64,000 bases of DNA from a virus (taxonomy: Duplodnaviria; Caudoviricetes): positions 76,320 to 140,319 of the IMG/VR virus record IMGVR_UViG_2639762779_000001; one strand, 5' to 3'. The notes beneath the pieces are model-generated. The model did no database searches and was not told the DNA's origin. It saw only the letters and a program-made list of their open reading frames with translations. The position numbers and the translations under genes were made by a program. Below are positions 4,806 through 60,161 of the stretch, piece by piece; within the stretch, counting starts at the first letter, position 1; each line of letters begins with the position of its first letter.

Positions 4806-5822
4806 TCAGAAACCAACAGAACTGCAGGGAACCCAAGTTCCAGGCTTTCCACTCGTGTCTGTTACGGAACACATCTGCTCGTATTCATCTCCACTCGGAG
4901 TTGGAGCTGGTGCAGGGGCGGTGGTCCTCGGTGCCGGTGCCGCGTTCCCCCTTCCGGTACTGGTCCGCTGGTAGGAGCCACCGGATGAGGTGGAGCGGCG
5001 GTAGGTGGTGTTCGAATACGGATTCGACTGCGCCGCGGCCGCCTGAGCCGCCGCTGCCGCGGCTGCGGCCTCCTCGTCGGCCTTGGTCTTCGCTGCGATC
5101 GAATCGTTCACGCCCTTGATGGCCAACTCCAATGCCTTGCGGGCCTCGTCGAGCTTCGAAGGCTCCTTGCCGTCCTTGAGCTTGTTCCCGGAATCGATGG
5201 CCTTGGTCAGGGTCTCGCGGGTCGCGTTGTCCTGCACCTTGCCGTCGGAGTCCTTGAGGAGCTTGGACGCTTCATCGACCTTCTTGGCGAGCGCGTTCTT
5301 CGCGGTTTCCAGGGTCTTCGCGGCCTTGGATGCGGTCACGGCCTTCACGGCTTCCGACAGGCTCTTCTCGTGGGATTCGTACCATTTCGCTTGGGAATTC
5401 AGCTTCACGGTCGCCGCATCCAGGCCATCCTTGCCGTCGGTCACGCAACCCTCATACCCGGGCGCCGTTTCCTTCAACGCCTTGGCCAGGGCATCAACGG
5501 TCTTCGAATCCTTCACCTGATCCGCCTTGATGGCGGAAGCATCGGCAGCAGCCCCGTTGACCAATGAGTTGTATTCGTTGGCGGCGCCACGCAGCGTATC
5601 GCTTGCCTGGGCGCACGCTGACTTCGCCACGTTCAATTCATGAGTAGTGTATGCATGCCATCCACCCAGACCGGCTCCGATCAGCACGACGATGGCGCCT
5701 GCGGCGATGGCGGGAACCAGCCACTTGGGACGCCTGCGCATCGTAGACTCCGTGCTCTCGATACCGGTCTCCGTCGGGGGAGTGGTATCCTCGACGATAT
5801 CGTTCTTCTTTTCCTCGTTCAT
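4806..5822 (-). CDS. membrane-anchored coiled-coil extracellular protein
   Basis: GGAGA RBS; N-terminal TM helix, Ala/Lys-rich helical body, Ala and Ser/Pro linker, C-terminal Cys pair. Confidence 0.85.
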   Translation of the reverse strand: MNEEKKNDIVEDTTPPTETGIESTESTMRRRPKWLVPAIAAGAIVVLIGAGLGGWHAYTTHELNVAKSACAQASDTLRGAANEYNSLVNGAAADASAIKADQVKDSKTVDALAKALKETAPGYEGCVTDGKDGLDAATVKLNSQAKWYESHEKSLSEAVKAVTASKAAKTLETAKNALAKKVDEASKLLKDSDGKVQDNATRETLTKAIDSGNKLKDGKEPSKLDEARKALELAIKGVNDSIAAKTKADEEAAAAAAAAQAAAAQSNPYSNTTYRRSTSSGGSYQRTSTGRGNAAPAPRTTAPAPAPTPSGDEYEQMCSVTDTSGKPGTWVPCSSVGF

Positions 5823-50473: not shown

Positions 50474-51511
50474 CTACAGTCCGTTCTTCGTCAGGTACTT
50501 GTTGTTGATGATCTTGAAGCACCGATTGGCTCCCAGTTCGTTCGCCAATCCTTCGGACAACTGCTGGTCTTCGTGCAGATGCCAGACGATGCCTTCGTCC
50601 AGACGGTCTTTGTTGACGTTGCCACGCAACCCGTCCACTTTGGCGATCATGTCGTCCACGCTCCCCGTCAACGCCCACTCGTTTTCGTCGAGTTCGGGAA
50701 CGGCGAGATTCGGCATGCCGGTCGGCCATTGGTCGCGGTCGATCTTGTGATGGTCTTTCCAGACGGCGAAGACGAACGGGCGTTGGGCCGGCAGTTTCAA
50801 CCGGTTGGATTGGATGCCGGGGCCGCATAGCTCGAACTGGACGGCCATGCCGGGCCATAGCATCTTGTCCAACTGGAACCTTTTGGCGAGCCGCATGTTC
50901 GTGGACATGGAGTCGAGTTCCCAGTTGCGTGAATACACGTGGACTTGTCCTCGTTCGTCCATGCTGAGCGTGGTGCTGGTGCCATCGACCTTCACGGTCG
51001 GCACGGCTTTCAACGTCTTGATTTCGTCCCAGTGGTCGGTGAGCGTCTGCAGACGTGGCGCGTCCGACTTGGAGCAGGGCGCGTCGAATCGGCCGATCTG
51101 AGCACCGCCCATCGGCAGGGGCTCTTCGTATTTGAGTACGTTCGCCTTATCGGTGATGTCCGTGCCGACTGCCGGCGTATACCGGAATCCGAGTTCATCC
51201 AAACGCATGATGAGGCCCTGCGAGTAGACTCCGCGCAGTTTCATGGTGCGGAGCACATGGCCGGTGATTTCCATGGAACCTACGATCATGGTCTTCTGGC
51301 CATGCTCCTGGAACGCCTTATAACGCGGGTCATAGGCGGGCAGGAGACTGTCGGTCTCGAAATAGGCGACCCTATCGCCCGGTTTCAATCCCATGTCCTT
51401 GCCGACCACCACACGCCAGCCCAATACGCGGGCGACCTCGATGCGATCGGCCCCTTCGATGGGCTCGATGTTGGTAATCTCCTGTACGCTGACGAGTTTC
51501 CTATTGCTCAT
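50474..51511 (-). CDS. ATP-dependent RNA ligase (DRB0094/Rnl2-like) with N-terminal OB domain
   Basis: RKLVSVQ.I..I.PIEGAD.IE, KLRGVYSQGL, KVDGTS, SRN, ELCGPGIQ.N, EGIV, FKIIN. Confidence 0.93.
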   Translation of the reverse strand: MSNRKLVSVQEITNIEPIEGADRIEVARVLGWRVVVGKDMGLKPGDRVAYFETDSLLPAYDPRYKAFQEHGQKTMIVGSMEITGHVLRTMKLRGVYSQGLIMRLDELGFRYTPAVGTDITDKANVLKYEEPLPMGGAQIGRFDAPCSKSDAPRLQTLTDHWDEIKTLKAVPTVKVDGTSTTLSMDERGQVHVYSRNWELDSMSTNMRLAKRFQLDKMLWPGMAVQFELCGPGIQSNRLKLPAQRPFVFAVWKDHHKIDRDQWPTGMPNLAVPELDENEWALTGSVDDMIAKVDGLRGNVNKDRLDEGIVWHLHEDQQLSEGLANELGANRCFKIINNKYLTKNGL

Positions 51512-52913: not shown

Positions 52914-53055
52914 GAAAAACCGTTCCGGCATGAGGAACGGCGGATGGGCCATGCGAGCAAGGGGTTTCTAATCCTACGACCGGTTCATGCCGCCGACCGT
53001 AGACTGCTCCCATTCGGGAACCCAGTTTTTTCGCATGTGGCCACTGGGCCCATCG

Positions 53056-53121
53056 TGCTTCGACGGGATTCGAACCCGCATTACTCCAAAAACAGAGCAT
53101 CCTACCGTTAAATGACGAAGC
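53056..53121 (-). pseudogene. degenerate 66-nt tRNA-like gene, anticodon unassignable
   Basis: Acceptor and TTCGAAT arms present; anticodon arm GCTC-TGTTTTTG-GAGT. Confidence 0.6.
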
Positions 53122-53382
53122 GGTGTTGCGGATACGATGCTGGGGAAGCGGTTCTGTCAGGCTACTGAGGTGAAGGCCTGCGCCGTGACCATCGTTCCAT
53201 CCCGCCCCCAATATGGCAGCGGGCGGGTGGTGGCGTTGATATCGCATTCGCAAGAAATAGAGCGGATACGGGCGCTACGTTAATCATCGGCCTCAATTAT
53301 GAAAAGTCCTCCCAACGTATCGTTCCCAAAACAGGTAAGCGTTCAATACCTGTATGGGTGGCGTTGACGCCCGTGTTTCCGC

Positions 53383-55195: not shown

Positions 55196-55364
55196 TTGGC
55201 CAACTGCCCCCCACCACGGTTGACCGGCGTGGCTGATACCAACCCAGGCTGCTGGATAGAGAAGAGAAAAACCAGAGCAAGGCTTTCGGGGAAAATTAAT
55301 ACTGTTCTCCCCCCCTCGTGTGACAGGAATCGGTTTGCACATTGAAGAAGGAGAGAACAGCAAG

Positions 55365-55440
55365 TGCCCCCAGCGGGGTTCGAACCCGCAACCTCTGGTT
55401 CCGTAGACCAACGCTCTGAATCCGATTGAGCTACGAGGGC
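55365..55440 (-). tRNA. tRNA-Arg(ACG)
   Basis: Loop CTACGGA. Confidence 0.9.
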
Positions 55441-55768
55441 GATGGCACATTTCGATCCCTTAACGACGTACGCCTGTGCCGGGCTGTGTTCGGCATGGTC
55501 CTCATTGATGTCGCTCCGGAGACCATCGCTGCAAAAAGAGCGTCCTCCCCATCCGTCCTGAATGACAGATGGAGGGAATCGGGAGACTGGATTGGGTTTT
55601 TACCAGCAACGTCGAGGACAAACGAGATCATGTCAGATCCCCTCTGGACGTGCCGCCGGTTCGGTCGCAAACCACCCTGCCGGGCCCGGCTCATCTTATC
55701 GTCTCGTTTCCGATGCGATTGTTCGATCACTCCCTGAAAGCAGTCCATTGATCGGATGGATTGCTTCG

Positions 55769-55840
55769 TGCCTCCGTCTGGAATCGAACCAGCATCCACG
55801 GTGCTTCAGACCGTTGCTCTACCATTTAAGCTACAGAGGC
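55769..55840 (-). tRNA. tRNA-Phe(GAA)
   Basis: ACGGT-CTGAAGC-ACCGT. Confidence 0.88.
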
Positions 55841-56004
55841 GCCGTACGACGGACTGTTATGGAATCTGGGTTATAGGCCCTTCCCCGGTCCGTCGCACTG
55901 TGTGTTTTCCTTCCCCTGTTTCGCGCGCGGCCGGAAGAAGAAGCTGCCGCAGCCTATCTGATAATAGATTGATGCGCTTATGCATGGCGATGTACCAAGC
56001 ATCG

Positions 56005-56076
56005 TGCCCCGACGGAATTACGATATCCGGACCCAGTGCTTAAAAGGCACCTGCTCTTCCTCTGAGCTACCGGGGC
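56005..56076 (-). tRNA. tRNA-Lys(TTT), non-canonical T-loop
   Basis: Loop CTTTTAA; T-loop ATCGTAA. Confidence 0.8.
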
Positions 56077-56218
56077 GATGGCATGTTTCCTTATTCCTTG
56101 ACGCTGCGTGCCCATGCCGGGGCTGTTCGTCCATGTTTTCTCCGGAAGCGTCCACATGGAAAGGACGGCTGCGAGTCCCATTGTTGGATCGGATCCATTG
56201 TTCTGGTTTTCCGGATAG

Positions 56219-56290
56219 AGCGGATGACGGGGTTCGAACCCGCGGTTTCCTGCTTGGGAAGCAGGCGTGCTACCACTGCACCACATCCGC
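56219..56290 (-). tRNA. tRNA-Gly(CCC)
   Basis: Loop TTCCCAA, U73. Confidence 0.9.
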
Positions 56291-56370
56291 ATGGCCGTGC
56301 TTTTTTCGGATACGTCGCACGGCGGTGACGTATAGTCCGCCAGCCGAAAGAGGGATGGCTGGTCTCCGAG

Positions 56371-56444
56371 TCGGATTGACAGGATTCGAACCTGCGACCC
56401 CATGCTCCCAAAGCACGTGCGCTACCAAACTGCGCCACAATCCG
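56371..56444 (-). tRNA. tRNA-Pro(TGG)
   Basis: CGG start, loop TTTGGGA. Confidence 0.92.
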
Positions 56445-56447
56445 ATA

Positions 56448-56699
56448 TTTTTGACAGGACTCCGTGGCTTACCAGCTACGTACGTGCCCTATTAAACGCG
56501 ATTTCCTCAGATTCTGGCACCGTCTTAAGCCAGTACCACGATGCTTTCATCTTGATTCTTTCGCGTGTTTAGACTGTCTCCACCGGTTTTCCTAACCTCC
56601 TGCGAAACCTCCCCTTCCAAGCGTGCGACCTAGGATTTGCACGCTCTTCCAGTTTTTCTTCACAGTCCTCGACTCTCCGGTTGTAAGACCTGTCAAAAA
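56448..56699 (-). ncRNA. candidate ~250-nt structured ncRNA of unknown family
   Basis: 11-bp closing stem TTTTTGACAGG/CCTGTCAAAAA with nested helices. Confidence 0.55.
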
Positions 56700-56701
56700 C
56701 G

Positions 56702-56761
56702 TGGCTCCGGGTGGATTCGAACCACCAACCATGCATGCTCCGCCGTTTGAGCTACGAAGCC
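56702..56761 (-). ncRNA. 60-nt tRNA-like RNA lacking the anticodon arm
   Basis: GGCTTCG/CGGAGCC acceptor, GCTC/GAGC D stem, GGTGG-TTCGAAT-CCACC T arm. Confidence 0.7.
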
Positions 56762-56949
56762 GGCCGGAACGCGTCGTCTCATGGCGCGTATCATTCCGGC
56801 TTTTACCGTTCGCTGTCAGACTAATGAGACTGGCCTGACAGCGGATAAAATCCGTTTGTTGTTTAGATACTGTGTACAAACGAAAACCACAGCACGGCCT
56901 TGAAGGCGCCGCTACCTGTTAATCCGCCTGTTTGCAACCAGGCGGATAG

Positions 56950-57031
56950 TGGTGGCGGGAGGACTCGAACCTCCGGTGTTTCCTTGTCGCAGATTTACAG
57001 TCTGCTGCCGTCGCCGCTGGGCCACACCACC
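56950..57031 (-). tRNA. tRNA-Tyr(GTA)
   Basis: GCAGA-CTGTAAA-TCTGC, long variable region. Confidence 0.9.
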
Positions 57032-57136
57032 GGTGCATCGCTTCTGCCCGTCACGGTGCGATGCATACCGTGCCCGATTCATCTGTACCCGCAGACCGTG
57101 AGTCTGCACAAGCTCATGGGAGATGGATCAGGGTCG

Positions 57137-57530
57137 TGGAGCTGCCGAGAATCGAACTCGGGTCTAGCCTGCTGTCAGCCTTTGCTTGCTGTCACGTGCG
57201 TATCCGACGCGGCTGATCCCCACTTGCGTGGGGAAGATCATCCGTGGACAGGGTGCGTTCGGCGAACCTGCACGGCTTGTAGACGATGTTCATATGCTGG
57301 CCGGGCGAATCCATCGTCCGACTGTCTGACCAGTCCGATTCAAAGTTTTCCGATTCTGGCCTGTTAATCGGCAATGGGGTCAGAATCGGGTTTCACGCTG
57401 CGAGGGTGAAACGGGAAGAAGAAACGGTGTTGGCGTTCGTTCTTGTGGCAAGGTTGATGACGGTTGTCCTTGCCGGCCTCCGGCACGTAGCAAATGGTTT
57501 CCTGCAGGCTATCGAAAGCCTGTCAACCCC
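57137..57530 (-). ncRNA. ssrA: tmRNA, tag ANTVSSSRFTLAA*
   Basis: 5' GGGGTTGA..TTCGA; 3' GACCCGAGTTCGATTCTCGGCAGCTCCA; tag ORF 57434-57393 ending LAA. Confidence 0.93.
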
Positions 57531-57821
57531 AGTGATATGGGTTGAACGGCGTGAACTTCAGTCGTTCAACCCATGTCTTTACTGCTGCCACCTTGCAAGG
57601 GTGGCGATTCCAAGGTCTTGTCCTCACGCCCATGCGGGCGTGAGTTGCCTTGGTAAGAAATGTTTTTTGGTGTCTCTCTTCGGTTTTCAATCGTCCTGCA
57701 TCACGTGCGTGGTGGTAGGGGTTGGCTTCCTACGCAGGATGCTTCACGCCGGCGTGGATTGCTCTTGGCCGGTTTGAAAGGAGAGAGTGTTTTGACTTCC
57801 TGTTTGGGCAGGAGGTGTTGG

Positions 57822-59366: not shown

Positions 59367-60161
59367 TGGCCTATCGGTGTAGCGACACGTGGCCTATCGG
59401 TGCAGTTTTCGATTTTTTTAAAGTTGGTTCGTGGATTGTGTTCTGTGAGCAGTGGCCTATCGGTGCAGTTTTGGTTGCGTGCGGAAACTTTCCCGGCTTC
59501 GAGAACGGGCTGGCTTTTTCCTTTGCCGCGGTAGTGGCCTATCGGTGTAAAACCCGATGTACTGGATAGTGGACTATCGGTGCAATCCCGCCGATTCGTT
59601 GATGGCCTATCGGTGCAGTTTTTTTTGACCGTATTGATGGCCTATCGGTGCAAAGCCTTCCGGTCAGAGTCTCGGATAGGTGGATACCGCAGTTTCCGAC
59701 CGCTATGAAAGGCTTGTGTTCCGCGACTCCGGGAAAATAGTGGCCTATCGGTGTAAAATACCTGATTCCCAGTCCTGCTACGTTTCTTTCCGATAGCCTC
59801 GTGCCCTGTATACTGACCCTATCCGACACTCTTCGCGGATAGTGGACTATCGGTGTAATCAGTAGTGGCCTATCGGTGTAATCGTCTTTGGTGACGGTCT
59901 TCCGGCGTGGAGTATCCCTGCAACGGTAGTGGCCTATCGGTGCAGTTTTAGTGGCCTATCGGTGTCGTTTTCATGGACTATCACTGTCGAATCCGTGGAC
60001 TATCGGTGTAATGAGCCTGCTCAAACCGCTTCTCCCGTAAGGTCTGACGGGCAGTGCTTATAGTCATACTACATACTTGACATACTCTCTTATAGCAGGA
60101 AGAACGAGAACGAACGATAGTGGCCTATCGGTGAATACATTTACACCGATAGGCCACTATC
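59367..60161 (+). repeat. iteron array / putative replication origin (TGG[C/A]CTATCGGTG, ~15 direct copies and 1 inverted)
   Basis: Copies at 59367, 59390, 59453, 59535, 59570, 59603, 59638, 59741, 59843, 59866, 59930, 59952, 59974 (degenerate), 59996, 60121; inverted pair 60116-60161. Confidence 0.85.

What the first reader, a model, noticed from the sequence alone, without database searches (positions are those of the whole stretch)
56448..56699. Unidentified ~250-nt multi-helix RNA filling the gap between two tRNA-like genes
Seen on the minus strand: an 11-bp terminal stem TTTTTGACAGG/CCTGTCAAAAA that starts and ends within a few nt of the flanking tRNA-like genes. It encloses nested pairs CTTAC/GTAAG, GACTGT/ACAGTC, ACTGG/CCGGT, AGCGTGC/GCACGCT, ACGCGA/TCGCGT, GATG/CATC and TGGTACTG/CGGTGCCA, with purine-rich junctions and lower GC than its neighbours. 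GACTG...GAGACAGTCT loosely recalls group I intron P7, but the rest of that core is not evident. Inference: a discrete ncRNA or ribozyme-like RNA released by tRNA processing.
Basis: partly seen in the sequence, partly recalled or inferred. Interest (0 to 1): 0.72.

Follow-up and report, generated by a model that had tools for sequence, protein, structure and literature searches.

The report
Conserved structured RNA in plasmid tRNA array
A 257-base stretch between two tRNA-type genes on a Bifidobacterium megaplasmid looks like a real, transcribed and unusually well-conserved folded RNA of unknown function, not a group I intron and not any catalogued RNA family.

Summary
The window is part of the published Bifidobacterium breve megaplasmid pMP7017 (100% identity), mislabelled a provirus. 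The finding lies in its minus-strand tmRNA/tRNA array, between a tRNA-like gene with no anticodon arm (56702-56761) and tRNA-Pro(UGG) (56370-56444).

The 11-bp terminal stem is real and non-random (0 of 20,000 shuffles).

No Rfam family matches at E<=10, so the group I idea is not supported.

Every homolog is 99.6-100% identical and confined to this plasmid family, so covariation cannot be tested. Across 82 metagenomic copies it is the least polymorphic feature of the region (pi 0.0024; other spacers 0.015-0.056; tmRNA 0.040). It always abuts tRNA-Pro (81 of 81), and RNA-library contigs of two studies cover it.

One contig joins the tRNA-Pro 3' end back to the RNA's 5' end. That could be a 331-nt circle sealed by the plasmid's Rnl5 ligase, or a reverse-transcription artefact.

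Five of 90 loci carry an unrelated cassette instead.

Earlier notes of this scan on other DNA called the array published; as shown to me, they did not mention this RNA.

The parts
56445..56701 (-). The candidate RNA: 257 nt between the predicted RNase Z site after A56702 and the RNase P site before C56444
   Evidence: fold; conservation; RNA-library contigs; no Rfam match; no plausible ORF
56689..56700 (-). 5' strand of the closing helix (GUUUUUGACAGG)
   Evidence: exact inverted repeat; 12 bp, mean pair probability 0.96; 0 of 20,000 shuffles
56447..56458 (-). 3' strand of the closing helix (CCUGUCAAAAAU); CCUGUCAA also occurs in the 3' part of tRNA-Pro
   Evidence: the repeat inside tRNA-Pro is read directly
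56619..56646 (-). Hairpin 1: 8-bp stem with a 12-nt loop AAAUCCUAGGUC that carries the palindrome CCUAGG (56629-56634)
   Evidence: P 1.00; palindromic loop
56515..56538 (-). Hairpin 2: 8-bp stem with loop GCUUAAGA that carries the palindrome CUUAAG (56524-56529). The only common polymorphism, loss of one G at 56530/56531, shortens this loop
   Evidence: P 0.76; indel
56496..56566 (-). 3' domain closed by ACGCGA/UCGCGU (56561-56566 with 56496-56501); encloses hairpin 2
   Evidence: P 0.95
56582..56681 (-). 5' domain closed by ACCGG/CCGGU; contains CUGUGAAG/UUUCGCAG, hairpin 1 and purine-rich unpaired stretches with two GGAGGU motifs
   Evidence: P 0.92 and 0.98; GGAGG at RNA positions 90 and 102
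56702..56761 (-). Upstream tRNA-like gene with acceptor, D and T arms but no anticodon arm; predicted RNase P/Z handle that sets the RNA's 5' end
   Evidence: Rfam tRNA 44.8 bits, 13 model positions deleted; ARAGORN does not call it; pi 0.0035 in 90 loci
56370..56444 (-). tRNA-Pro(UGG), always directly downstream. Its acceptor stem would stack on the closing helix (A56371-U56445, C56701.A56446, G56700.U56447)
   Evidence: adjacency 81 of 81; geometry read
50474..51511 (-). Context: Rnl5-type nick-sealing RNA ligase gene in the operon after the array; candidate enzyme if the circular junction is real
   Evidence: PF21189 6.5e-21, PF09414 7e-08; Naegleria gruberi RNA ligase 5cot_A, E 4.9e-32, residues 2-281 of 345
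55576..55750 (-). Context: manA-motif RNA in another spacer of the same array
   Evidence: RF01745, 41.5 bits, below the gathering score of 55.2, E 2.6e-08; reported for pMP7017 in PMC10832533 (passages)
57134..57530 (-). Context: plasmid tmRNA at the head of the array
   Evidence: RF00023, 78.1 bits; PMC10832533 (passages)

Best explanation
It is a discrete, stable, structured non-coding RNA specific to the pMP7017 family of Bifidobacterium megaplasmids. It is made as part of the polycistronic tmRNA/tRNA-array transcript.

Inferred steps:
1. RNase Z cuts after the discriminator of the anticodon-arm-less tRNA-like element (A56702) and creates the 5' end.
2. The 3' end is made either by RNase P at the 5' end of tRNA-Pro, giving a 257-nt RNA, or by RNase Z after tRNA-Pro A56371, giving a 331-nt RNA-plus-tRNA-Pro unit.
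3. The 12-bp closing helix seals both ends against exonucleases and stacks on the tRNA-Pro acceptor stem.

Shown here: the anatomy, the non-random closing helix, the exceptional sequence constancy, the fixed linkage to tRNA-Pro, and presence in RNA-library contigs.

Not shown: what the RNA does. My committed guess is a trans-acting scaffold or decoy tied to the plasmid's translation and RNA-repair island (tmRNA, tRNAs, Rnl5 ligase, HAD phosphatase, ASCH). It may self-associate through its two palindromic apical loops.
For: Structure:
- The closing helix is far beyond chance and unique among the 17 spacers.
- The fold is more stable than shuffles (z -3.73), with five helices at P>=0.92.

Conservation:
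- Against diverged plasmid lineages the RNA shows 0 mismatches and 1 loop indel in 257 nt. In the same comparison other spacers are 78-98% identical, tmRNA 92%, the ligase CDS 93% and the rep CDS 78%.
- In 82 full metagenomic copies, pi per site is 0.0024 and 1 of 257 sites segregates with minor allele >=3. Other spacers have 4.8-21% such sites and tmRNA 18.6%.
- Identical RNA copies sit next to tmRNA alleles that are 83.7-99.5% identical to the window's.
- All 6 rare substitutions fall on MFE-unpaired positions, which make up 44% of the RNA.

Linkage and expression:
- The RNA is followed by UAU plus tRNA-Pro in 81 of 81 copies with enough flank.
- RNA-library contigs cover it in X1 (record 3, 56370-56702), X2 (record 9, 55984-57700) and X4 of a second study (record 13, 56493-56700). 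X4 contigs break at 56700/56701.
- PMC10832533 (passages) reports the array as highly transcribed in three tandem units.

Exclusions:
- No plausible ORF.
- No Rfam match.
Against: - No covariation test is possible. Every homolog found is 99.6-100% identical and all belong to one plasmid family.
- The slot holds an unrelated cassette of about 269 nt in 5 of 90 metagenome loci and 2 of 8 IMG/VR contigs. The RNA is therefore dispensable or replaceable.
- Folding stability is not specific to it: 5 of 17 spacers, the target included, have z <= -3.3.
- The conservation island (tRNA-like + RNA + tRNA-Pro) could reflect recent recombinational spread of a block linked to a selected tRNA-Pro, rather than selection on the RNA.
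- The metagenome sample was drawn with an exact pattern in the adjacent tRNA-like gene, which may bias towards one haplotype.
- The RNA-seq evidence consists of contigs only. They show no ends, strand or level, and DNA carry-over was not controlled.
- The published transcriptome analysis did not list this RNA. I saw passages only; supplements are closed.
Confidence: 0.45

Rival explanations
1. It is a cis-acting structured spacer with no function of its own as a free RNA. The closing helix extends the tRNA-Pro acceptor helix and insulates neighbouring tRNA folds. It then acts as a processing or timing element for tRNA-Pro maturation, for example as an RNase III or RNase P/Z determinant.
For: - Invariant adjacency to tRNA-Pro (81 of 81).
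- Co-conservation of the block tRNA-like + RNA + tRNA-Pro.
- The closing helix abuts the acceptor stem, with A56371-U56445 and G56700.U56447 pairs possible.
- Other spacers of the array are also rich in strong hairpins.
Against: - The same tRNA-Pro (75 of 75 nt identical) sits behind an unrelated cassette with no terminal helix in type-B plasmids. tRNA-Pro therefore does not need this RNA.
- A processing stem alone would not explain why the 230 internal nucleotides, long unpaired purine-rich stretches included, are invariant.
Confidence: 0.3
2. It is a remnant of a mobile or recombined cassette (MITE-like, bounded by terminal inverted repeats). It is carried along neutrally in a cassette-shuffling tRNA array, and its constancy only reflects recent spread.
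For: - 11-bp terminal inverted repeats sit exactly at the edges of the variable slot.
- Alternative cassettes occupy the same slot, and a further indel of about 180 nt lies after tRNA-Pro in some lineages.
- The terminal motif recurs at the ends of inverted-repeat elements in 24 environmental genome stretches.
Against: - No target-site duplication: the flanks are ACG and TAT.
- It is single-copy in the 140-kb record.
- The environmental elements share only the terminal 11-16 nt and nothing inside.
- Type A occupies 84 of 90 metagenome loci, next to tmRNA alleles that differ by up to 16%. That is hard to reach neutrally.
- The rare substitutions avoid paired positions.
Confidence: 0.15
3. It is a group I intron or another self-processing ribozyme.
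For: Size of about 250 nt, a multi-helix fold and a tRNA context. Bacterial group I introns do sit in tRNA genes (recalled knowledge).
Against: - No Rfam hit at E<=10 to any of 4227 families.
- The proposed P7-like pairing has probability about 0.
- It lies between two complete genes rather than in an anticodon loop.
Confidence: 0.03

Closest known systems
manA RNA motif (Rfam RF01745)
   Same: A structured RNA of unknown function in a tRNA island on a mobile element. One copy sits in another spacer of this same array (PMC10832533 passages).
   Different: No similarity: the target gives no manA hit or any other Rfam hit at E<=10. manA is widespread, whereas this RNA is confined to one plasmid family.
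ROOL and GOLLD RNAs
   Same: Encoded on phages and prophages, 'often near tRNA islands', function unknown. They assemble through kissing loops, some of them symmetric and palindromic (preprint 10.1101/2024.12.08.627333, passages read). The target has 6-nt palindromes in 2 of its 3 predicted hairpin loops.
   Different: They are about 580 and 800 nt or more, against 257 nt here. No covariance-model match. Oligomerisation of the target is untested. The carrier is a plasmid, not a phage.
tRNA-punctuated release of a non-tRNA RNA (e.g. MALAT1/mascRNA, mitochondrial tRNA punctuation; recalled knowledge)
   Same: A tRNA-like fold that cannot decode serves as an RNase P/Z handle and defines the end of a neighbouring RNA.
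   Different: Those are eukaryotic or organellar systems. Here the handle is upstream and a real tRNA is downstream. Cleavage sites are inferred, not mapped.
Circular RNA intermediates made when flanking sequences pair, are cut and are ligated (archaeal pre-rRNA, permuted tRNA genes of Cyanidioschyzon; recalled knowledge)
   Same: A helix formed by the two flanks brings the ends together. One RNA-library contig shows the matching back-junction, and a nick-sealing ligase is encoded nearby.
   Different: The enzymes would differ: RNase Z plus Rnl5 rather than splicing endonuclease plus RtcB. The host is a bacterial plasmid. The evidence is one contig in one of four runs, and an RT artefact is not excluded.
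Group I introns in bacterial tRNA genes
   Same: Similar length and tRNA context.
   Different: No core match and no interrupted gene. See the membership test.

Membership tests
Group I intron (Rfam RF00028) | Conserved P3-P9 core with a G-binding P7, detectable by the covariance model | tested here: not met
   cmscan with permissive filters gave 0 matches at E<=10 on 266 nt and none in the region on 801 nt. GACUGU/ACAGUC has pair probability about 0.
Group I intron (Rfam RF00028) | Interrupts a host gene, with exon sequence on both sides | tested here: not met
   It is flanked by a complete tRNA-Pro and by a closed tRNA-like gene. The missing anticodon arm of that gene is not at the junction.
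Group I intron (Rfam RF00028) | Self-splicing activity | not testable with these tools
   Needs in vitro transcription and a GTP-dependent splicing assay.
MITE / TIR-bounded mobile element | Terminal inverted repeats | tested here: met
   11-bp perfect inverted repeat at both ends.
MITE / TIR-bounded mobile element | Target-site duplication | tested here: not met
   The flanks are ...CCACG and TATCGG...; no direct repeat.
MITE / TIR-bounded mobile element | Multiple copies, or relatives at other sites | tested here: not met
   One copy in the 140-kb record and in the window. All 81 fully flanked metagenomic copies sit at the same site. The 24 environmental elements with the same termini share only 11-16 nt.
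manA / ROOL / GOLLD / raiA / Y RNA and the other 4227 Rfam families | Match to the family covariance model | tested here: not met
   no match in 56445-56701 at E<=10.
Y RNA (YrlA-type) in an RNA-repair operon | Partner Ro60/Rsr (TROVE) gene | tested here: not met
   PF05731 was not found in the held 140-kb record, while controls were positive in 2 of 14 genomes. The record is about 65% of the plasmid, so absence is not proven.
tRNA-punctuated processed ncRNA | Directly flanked by tRNA or tRNA-like folds usable by RNase P/Z | tested here: met
   The tRNA-like gene ends 2 nt upstream and tRNA-Pro starts 3 nt downstream. Neither encodes CCA.
tRNA-punctuated processed ncRNA | Co-transcription, and discrete ends at the predicted sites | tested here: inconclusive
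   X2 record 9 spans 55984-57700. X1 record 3 starts at 56702. X4 records 13 and 14 meet at 56700/56701, but record 13 carries 9 loose letters. Contigs cannot show ends.
Ligase-made circular RNA | Back-junction joining the 3' end to the 5' end | tested here: inconclusive
   X1 record 3 (361 nt) reads 56702->56370 and then 56700->56673. That equals a 331-nt cycle plus a 30-nt overlap, with a 2-nt ambiguity (AC). It was seen in 1 of 4 runs laid. RT template switching is not excluded.
Ligase-made circular RNA | A suitable ligase and a nicked-duplex geometry | tested here: met
   Rnl5 homolog (5cot_A, E 4.9e-32). The closing helix stacks on the acceptor stem, so A56371-OH and p-C56701 face U56445 and A56446.
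Self-assembling RNA (kissing-loop homo-oligomer) | Self-complementary apical loops | tested here: inconclusive
   CCUAGG and CUUAAG lie in 2 of 3 MFE hairpin loops. 0 of 300 shuffles have two such loops. Elsewhere in the array 2 of 76 loops have one. This test was chosen after I saw the pattern. Assembly itself is untested.

The most novel reading that the evidence does not exclude
After RNase Z cuts behind both the armless tRNA-like element and tRNA-Pro, the RNA and tRNA-Pro remain as one 331-nt piece. The two ends of that piece face each other as a nick in a nearly continuous helix (closing stem stacked on acceptor stem). The plasmid's own Rnl5 nick-sealing ligase closes the nick, giving a covalently circular, tRNA-containing RNA. 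This would be the first physiological substrate for an Rnl5 ligase. The circle, or the linear RNA, may further self-assemble through its two palindromic apical loops, as the larger tRNA-island RNAs ROOL and GOLLD do.
Probability: 0.12. Interest if true: 0.85.

Novelty: new member of a known kind. Interest (0 to 1): 0.5.

Why it matters
Megaplasmids of the pMP7017 family are common in infant-gut Bifidobacterium. Their tRNA/tmRNA island has been read only as a codon-supply device.

An invariant, transcribed 257-nt folded RNA inside that island would add a new class to the small set of enigmatic structured RNAs that travel with tRNA islands on mobile elements (manA, ROOL, GOLLD). It sits next to a tRNA mimic that cannot decode, and upstream of an RNA-repair-type operon.

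If the back-junction is real, it would give the Rnl5 ligase family a natural substrate. The abstract of PMC5397189 describes the physiological functions of that family as uncharted. It would also be a bacterial example of tRNA-processing enzymes making a circular RNA.

If it is only a structured spacer, the result still shows which parts of the array are under the tightest constraint.

Tried and rejected
1. Known RNA families. Rfam gathering search on 64 kb and E-value searches on 801, 6201 and 266 nt gave nothing in the target.

2. Distant homologs.
- blastn against phages: 703 records matched, but none covers 80% or more of the query. The 20 rows I saw cover 6-7% of it, 18 at tRNA-Pro and 2 at tRNA-Tyr.
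- Plasmids: only 6 Bifidobacterium megaplasmids, 99.6-100% identical.
- blastn and nhmmer against all fetched loci: only near-identical copies.
- Covariance model R1 over 68 sources, 708 kb: only the window itself. The next best hit is 18 bits and gap-ridden.
- IMG/VR scan for hairpin 1 with free stems: only 6 known family contigs.

3. MY ERROR. The metagenome scan used 8 N per stem where the stem has 7. Its zero result is therefore meaningless. Because it found nothing, the tool allowed a second scan, so that extra scan came from my own slip.

4. Protein-anchored search of GTDB genomes with the ligase: no relatives. The species representatives seem to lack this plasmid.

6. MITE idea. The terminal-repeat pattern found 24 stretches in environmental MAGs. 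Most of them have ends built of ACAGGAT-like repeats. They share only the terminal 11-16 nt with the target, so I rejected them as relatives.

7. Replication iterons. The 20-mer iteron occurs at 59390-59971 and 63076, not in the target.

8. Promoter or terminator role for TTGACA/T5: no matching site in the scan.

9. Coding potential: only tiny ORFs or ORFs overlapping tRNAs.

10. Type-B cassette as a structural analog: no terminal helix and no similarity.

11. CRISPR-repeat mimicry: not tested. The held 140-kb record has no array.

12. RNA-seq limits.
- X1 has no cover at 56272-56352, and no contig continues linearly past 56370.
- X2 shows no back-junction.
- X6 carries a different array layout.
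- The 9 loose letters on X4 record 13 match nothing informative.

13. Supplements of PMC10832533 (tRNA and transcription-unit tables) are closed and may bear on transcript boundaries.
Full report
WHERE THE WINDOW COMES FROM. The window is the last 64 kb of a 140-kb IMG/VR record classed as a provirus. Over 56300-57600 it is 100% identical to Bifidobacterium breve megaplasmid pMP7017 (NZ_KM406416.1) and 96-98% identical to five B. longum megaplasmids. The finding lies in the plasmid's minus-strand RNA island. That island holds a tmRNA (57134-57530), 18 ARAGORN tRNAs, two more Rfam-only tRNA matches (53055-53122 and 56702-56761) and a sub-threshold manA motif (55576-55750). Passages of PMC10832533 describe 20 tRNA genes in three tandem transcription units, 17 of them highly transcribed. 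They name the tmRNA and the manA motif as the plasmid's non-coding RNAs. They do not mention the stretch studied here, which is pMP7017 121704-121961. Two earlier notes of this scan on other DNA (e1-1952919, e1-1952940) reached the same identification of the array. As shown to me, they did not mention this RNA.

THE OBSERVATION. TTTTTGACAGG (56689-56699, minus strand) and its exact complement (56448-56458) are present. With G56700.U56447 they make a 12-bp closing helix, mean pair probability 0.96. No mononucleotide shuffle out of 20,000 gives an 11-bp end-to-end stem, and the other 16 spacers of the array reach 3-5 bp. The 258-nt stretch folds at -82.1 kcal/mol with z -3.73. This z-score is not special: 5 of 17 spacers, the target included, have z <= -3.3.

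GAUG/CAUC is weak (P 0.24). CUUAC/GUAAG, GACUGU/ACAGUC and ACUGG/CCGGU have probability about 0 and are replaced by ACCGG/CCGGU and CUGUGAAG/UUUCGCAG. GC is 0.49, the lowest among the spacers. Purines are 62%.

The upstream neighbour is a tRNA with acceptor, D and T arms but no anticodon arm (Rfam tRNA 44.8 bits, 13 model positions deleted). The downstream neighbour is an ordinary tRNA-Pro(UGG).

WHAT IT IS NOT. No Rfam family matches at E<=10, even when only 266 nt are searched with the laxest filters. This removes group I introns, RNase P, 6S, Y RNAs, manA, ROOL, GOLLD and raiA as candidates by model. There is no plausible ORF, no replication iteron and no promoter- or terminator-like site involving the terminal repeat.

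It is single-copy and has no target-site duplication. A GTDB-wide scan for the same termini 220-250 nt apart returned 24 stretches in Planctomycetota, Bacteroidota, Verrucomicrobiota and other MAGs. Most of those elements have ends built of ACAGGAT-like repeats. They share only the terminal 11-16 nt with the target, so I do not count them as relatives.

DISTRIBUTION AND CONSERVATION. Loci anchored on the neighbouring replicase and RNA-ligase genes and on the tRNA-like gene give eight IMG/VR contigs. Six carry the RNA at 99.4-100% identity. Two carry an unrelated cassette of about 269 nt in exactly the same slot.

A metagenome scan with the tRNA-like pattern gave 90 loci. Of these, 84 start with the RNA (one of them truncated), 5 have the other cassette, and 1 is different, possibly chimeric. 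All 81 copies with enough flank are followed by UAU and tRNA-Pro.

Against diverged lineages the RNA has 0 mismatches and one loop indel in 257 nt. In the same comparison other spacers are 78-98% identical, tmRNA 92%, the ligase CDS 93% and the replicase CDS 78%. Over 82 full copies, pi per site is 0.0024 and 1 of 257 sites has a minor allele of 3 or more. The other spacers give pi 0.015-0.056 and 4.8-21% such sites; tmRNA gives 0.040 and 18.6%. Only tRNA-Pro (0.0025) and the tRNA-like gene (0.0035) are comparable. Identical RNA copies are linked to tmRNA alleles 83.7-99.5% identical to the window's.

The six rare substitutions all fall on MFE-unpaired positions, which make up 44% of the RNA, and the common indel shortens a hairpin loop. 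Some singletons come from contigs of about 1.7x coverage and may be errors.

Together this marks a sharp conservation island made of tRNA-like gene, RNA and tRNA-Pro. It argues for constraint, but recent recombinational spread of the block is not excluded. Because all copies are nearly identical, no covariation test is possible.

EXPRESSION. Twenty runs hold part of 55300-57700, 14 of them recorded as RNA. Four were laid, all as assembled contigs.
- X1: a 361-nt contig, mean depth 187.6, covers 56370-56702.
- X2 (same study): one contig spans 55984-57700.
- X4 (another study, a related plasmid): one contig covers 56701-56945 and another covers 56493-56700 with 9 unexplained extra letters. A third is exactly the manA spacer, 55442-55767.
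- X6: carries a different array layout.
Contigs cannot show ends, strand or level, and I could not lay a silent control. With the published statement that the array is highly transcribed, I take transcription as likely and discrete ends near 56700-56702 as a weak hint.

THE BACK-JUNCTION. X1 record 3 reads 56702 down to 56370, and its last 28 letters read 56700 down to 56673 again. With the shared dinucleotide AC (56702-56701 equals 56371-56370), this is what a 331-nt cycle with a 30-nt overlap looks like in a k=31 graph. In other words, some reads join the 3' end of tRNA-Pro to the first bases after the tRNA-like gene.

The two joined positions are the same with respect to each tRNA, at or next to the discriminator. 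They are the ends expected after two RNase Z cuts: a 5'-phosphate on the RNA side and a 3'-OH on tRNA-Pro (enzymology recalled).

In the fold of this 331-nt unit, the closing helix stacks on the acceptor stem. A56371 can pair with U56445, C56701 faces A56446, and G56700 pairs with U56447. The ends therefore form a nick in an almost continuous duplex.

The operon after the array encodes a ligase with an N-terminal OB domain plus an RNA_ligase domain. It matches Naegleria gruberi RNA ligase at E 4.9e-32. That enzyme is the type member of the Rnl5 family, which seals 3'-OH/5'-PO4 nicks in duplexes whose 3'-OH strand is RNA (abstracts of PMC7261155 and PMC5397189). HAD-phosphatase and ASCH genes follow.

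This fits well, but it rests on one contig in one of four runs. Structure-guided template switching by reverse transcriptase, with a 2-nt microhomology, would give the same junction. I rate a real circle at roughly 40%. Either explanation implies that the two ends lie close together in the folded transcript.

A POST-HOC OBSERVATION. Two of the three predicted hairpin loops carry 6-nt palindromes: CCUAGG in a 12-nt loop and CUUAAG in an 8-nt loop. None of 300 shuffles has two such loops, and elsewhere in the array 2 of 76 loops have one. ROOL and GOLLD are also encoded near tRNA islands of mobile elements, and they assemble through kissing loops, some symmetric and palindromic (preprint 10.1101/2024.12.08.627333, passages). 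Self-association is therefore a testable idea, nothing more.

VERDICT. A purely cis-acting structured leader or spacer for tRNA-Pro comes next (0.30), then a neutral cassette remnant (0.15). The group I or ribozyme idea is not supported (0.03).

It belongs to no known family. I class it as a new member of the known kind 'structured RNAs of unknown function in tRNA islands of mobile elements'. Interest is moderate (0.5): a narrow host range and no covariation, against exceptional constancy, an unusual neighbour (a tRNA that cannot decode) and a possible ligase-made circle.

LIMITS AND ERRORS. My first metagenome pattern was mis-specified, so its zero result means nothing. Paper supplements were closed.

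Noticed in passing
window 56702-56761; loci L044-L079: A generic pattern for tRNAs with D and T arms but too little sequence between them for an anticodon arm hit 44 IMG/VR stretches. Nine are from this plasmid family and 35 from unrelated viral contigs. Armless tRNA-like genes may be a recurrent feature of mobile elements. I did not check acceptor pairing systematically.
   Followed up: partly
L027:2929-3197 (also L006, L009, L037, L041): Alternative cassette of 269 nt in the same slot. It has a strong 5' hairpin, a long-range 10-bp stem and a T-arm-like GGAGTTCGAATCTCC. Fold z is -2.35. No Rfam match at E<=1 and no similarity to the target.
   Followed up: partly
L027:5053-5127 and 5308-5382: In the type-B relative, ARAGORN calls a tRNA with anticodon CUA (labelled Pyl, amber-reading) and one with a 4-base anticodon call (ctaa). 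The window has tRNA-Leu(UAA) and tRNA-Arg(UCU) at the matching places, 79-86% identical. These are possible suppressor-type tRNAs on related plasmids.
   Followed up: no
window 57134-57530: The plasmid tmRNA is highly polymorphic among metagenomic copies: 18.6% of sites segregate, and identity to the window is 83.7-99.5%. The tRNAs and the target RNA next to it are almost invariant.
   Followed up: partly
window 56762-56948: The neighbouring spacer has the most negative folding z-score of the array (-4.94), with three strong 7-9-bp hairpins. One loop carries the palindrome UUGCAA.
   Followed up: no
window 55442-55767: In run X4 a 326-nt contig coincides almost exactly with the manA-containing spacer between tRNA-Arg and tRNA-Phe (55441-55767). 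This may mean that spacer also persists as a discrete RNA.
   Followed up: no
after tRNA-Pro: L029:3014-3192, also L005, L026, L027: An extra GC-rich insertion of about 180 nt follows tRNA-Pro in several lineages and is absent from the window. The array evolves by gain and loss of cassettes.
   Followed up: no
L171-L194 (GTDB MAG contigs): Inverted-repeat elements of about 240-270 bp. Most have ends built of repeated ACAGGAT-like units and finish in TTTTTGACAGG / CCTGTCAAAAA. Two stretches each were found in five MAGs of Planctomycetota, Bacteroidota, Verrucomicrobiota and an FCB-group bacterium. I did not identify them.
   Followed up: partly
whole record G000: IMG/VR classes this record as a provirus (CheckV completeness 65%), but it is a conjugative megaplasmid of the pMP7017 family.
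   Followed up: yes
window 56725-56735: The short linker that replaces the anticodon arm of the tRNA-like gene reads GCAUGCAUGG and contains the palindromes GCAUGC and AUGCAU. Variants are GCGUGCAUGG (type B) and GCAUGCAAGG.
   Followed up: no
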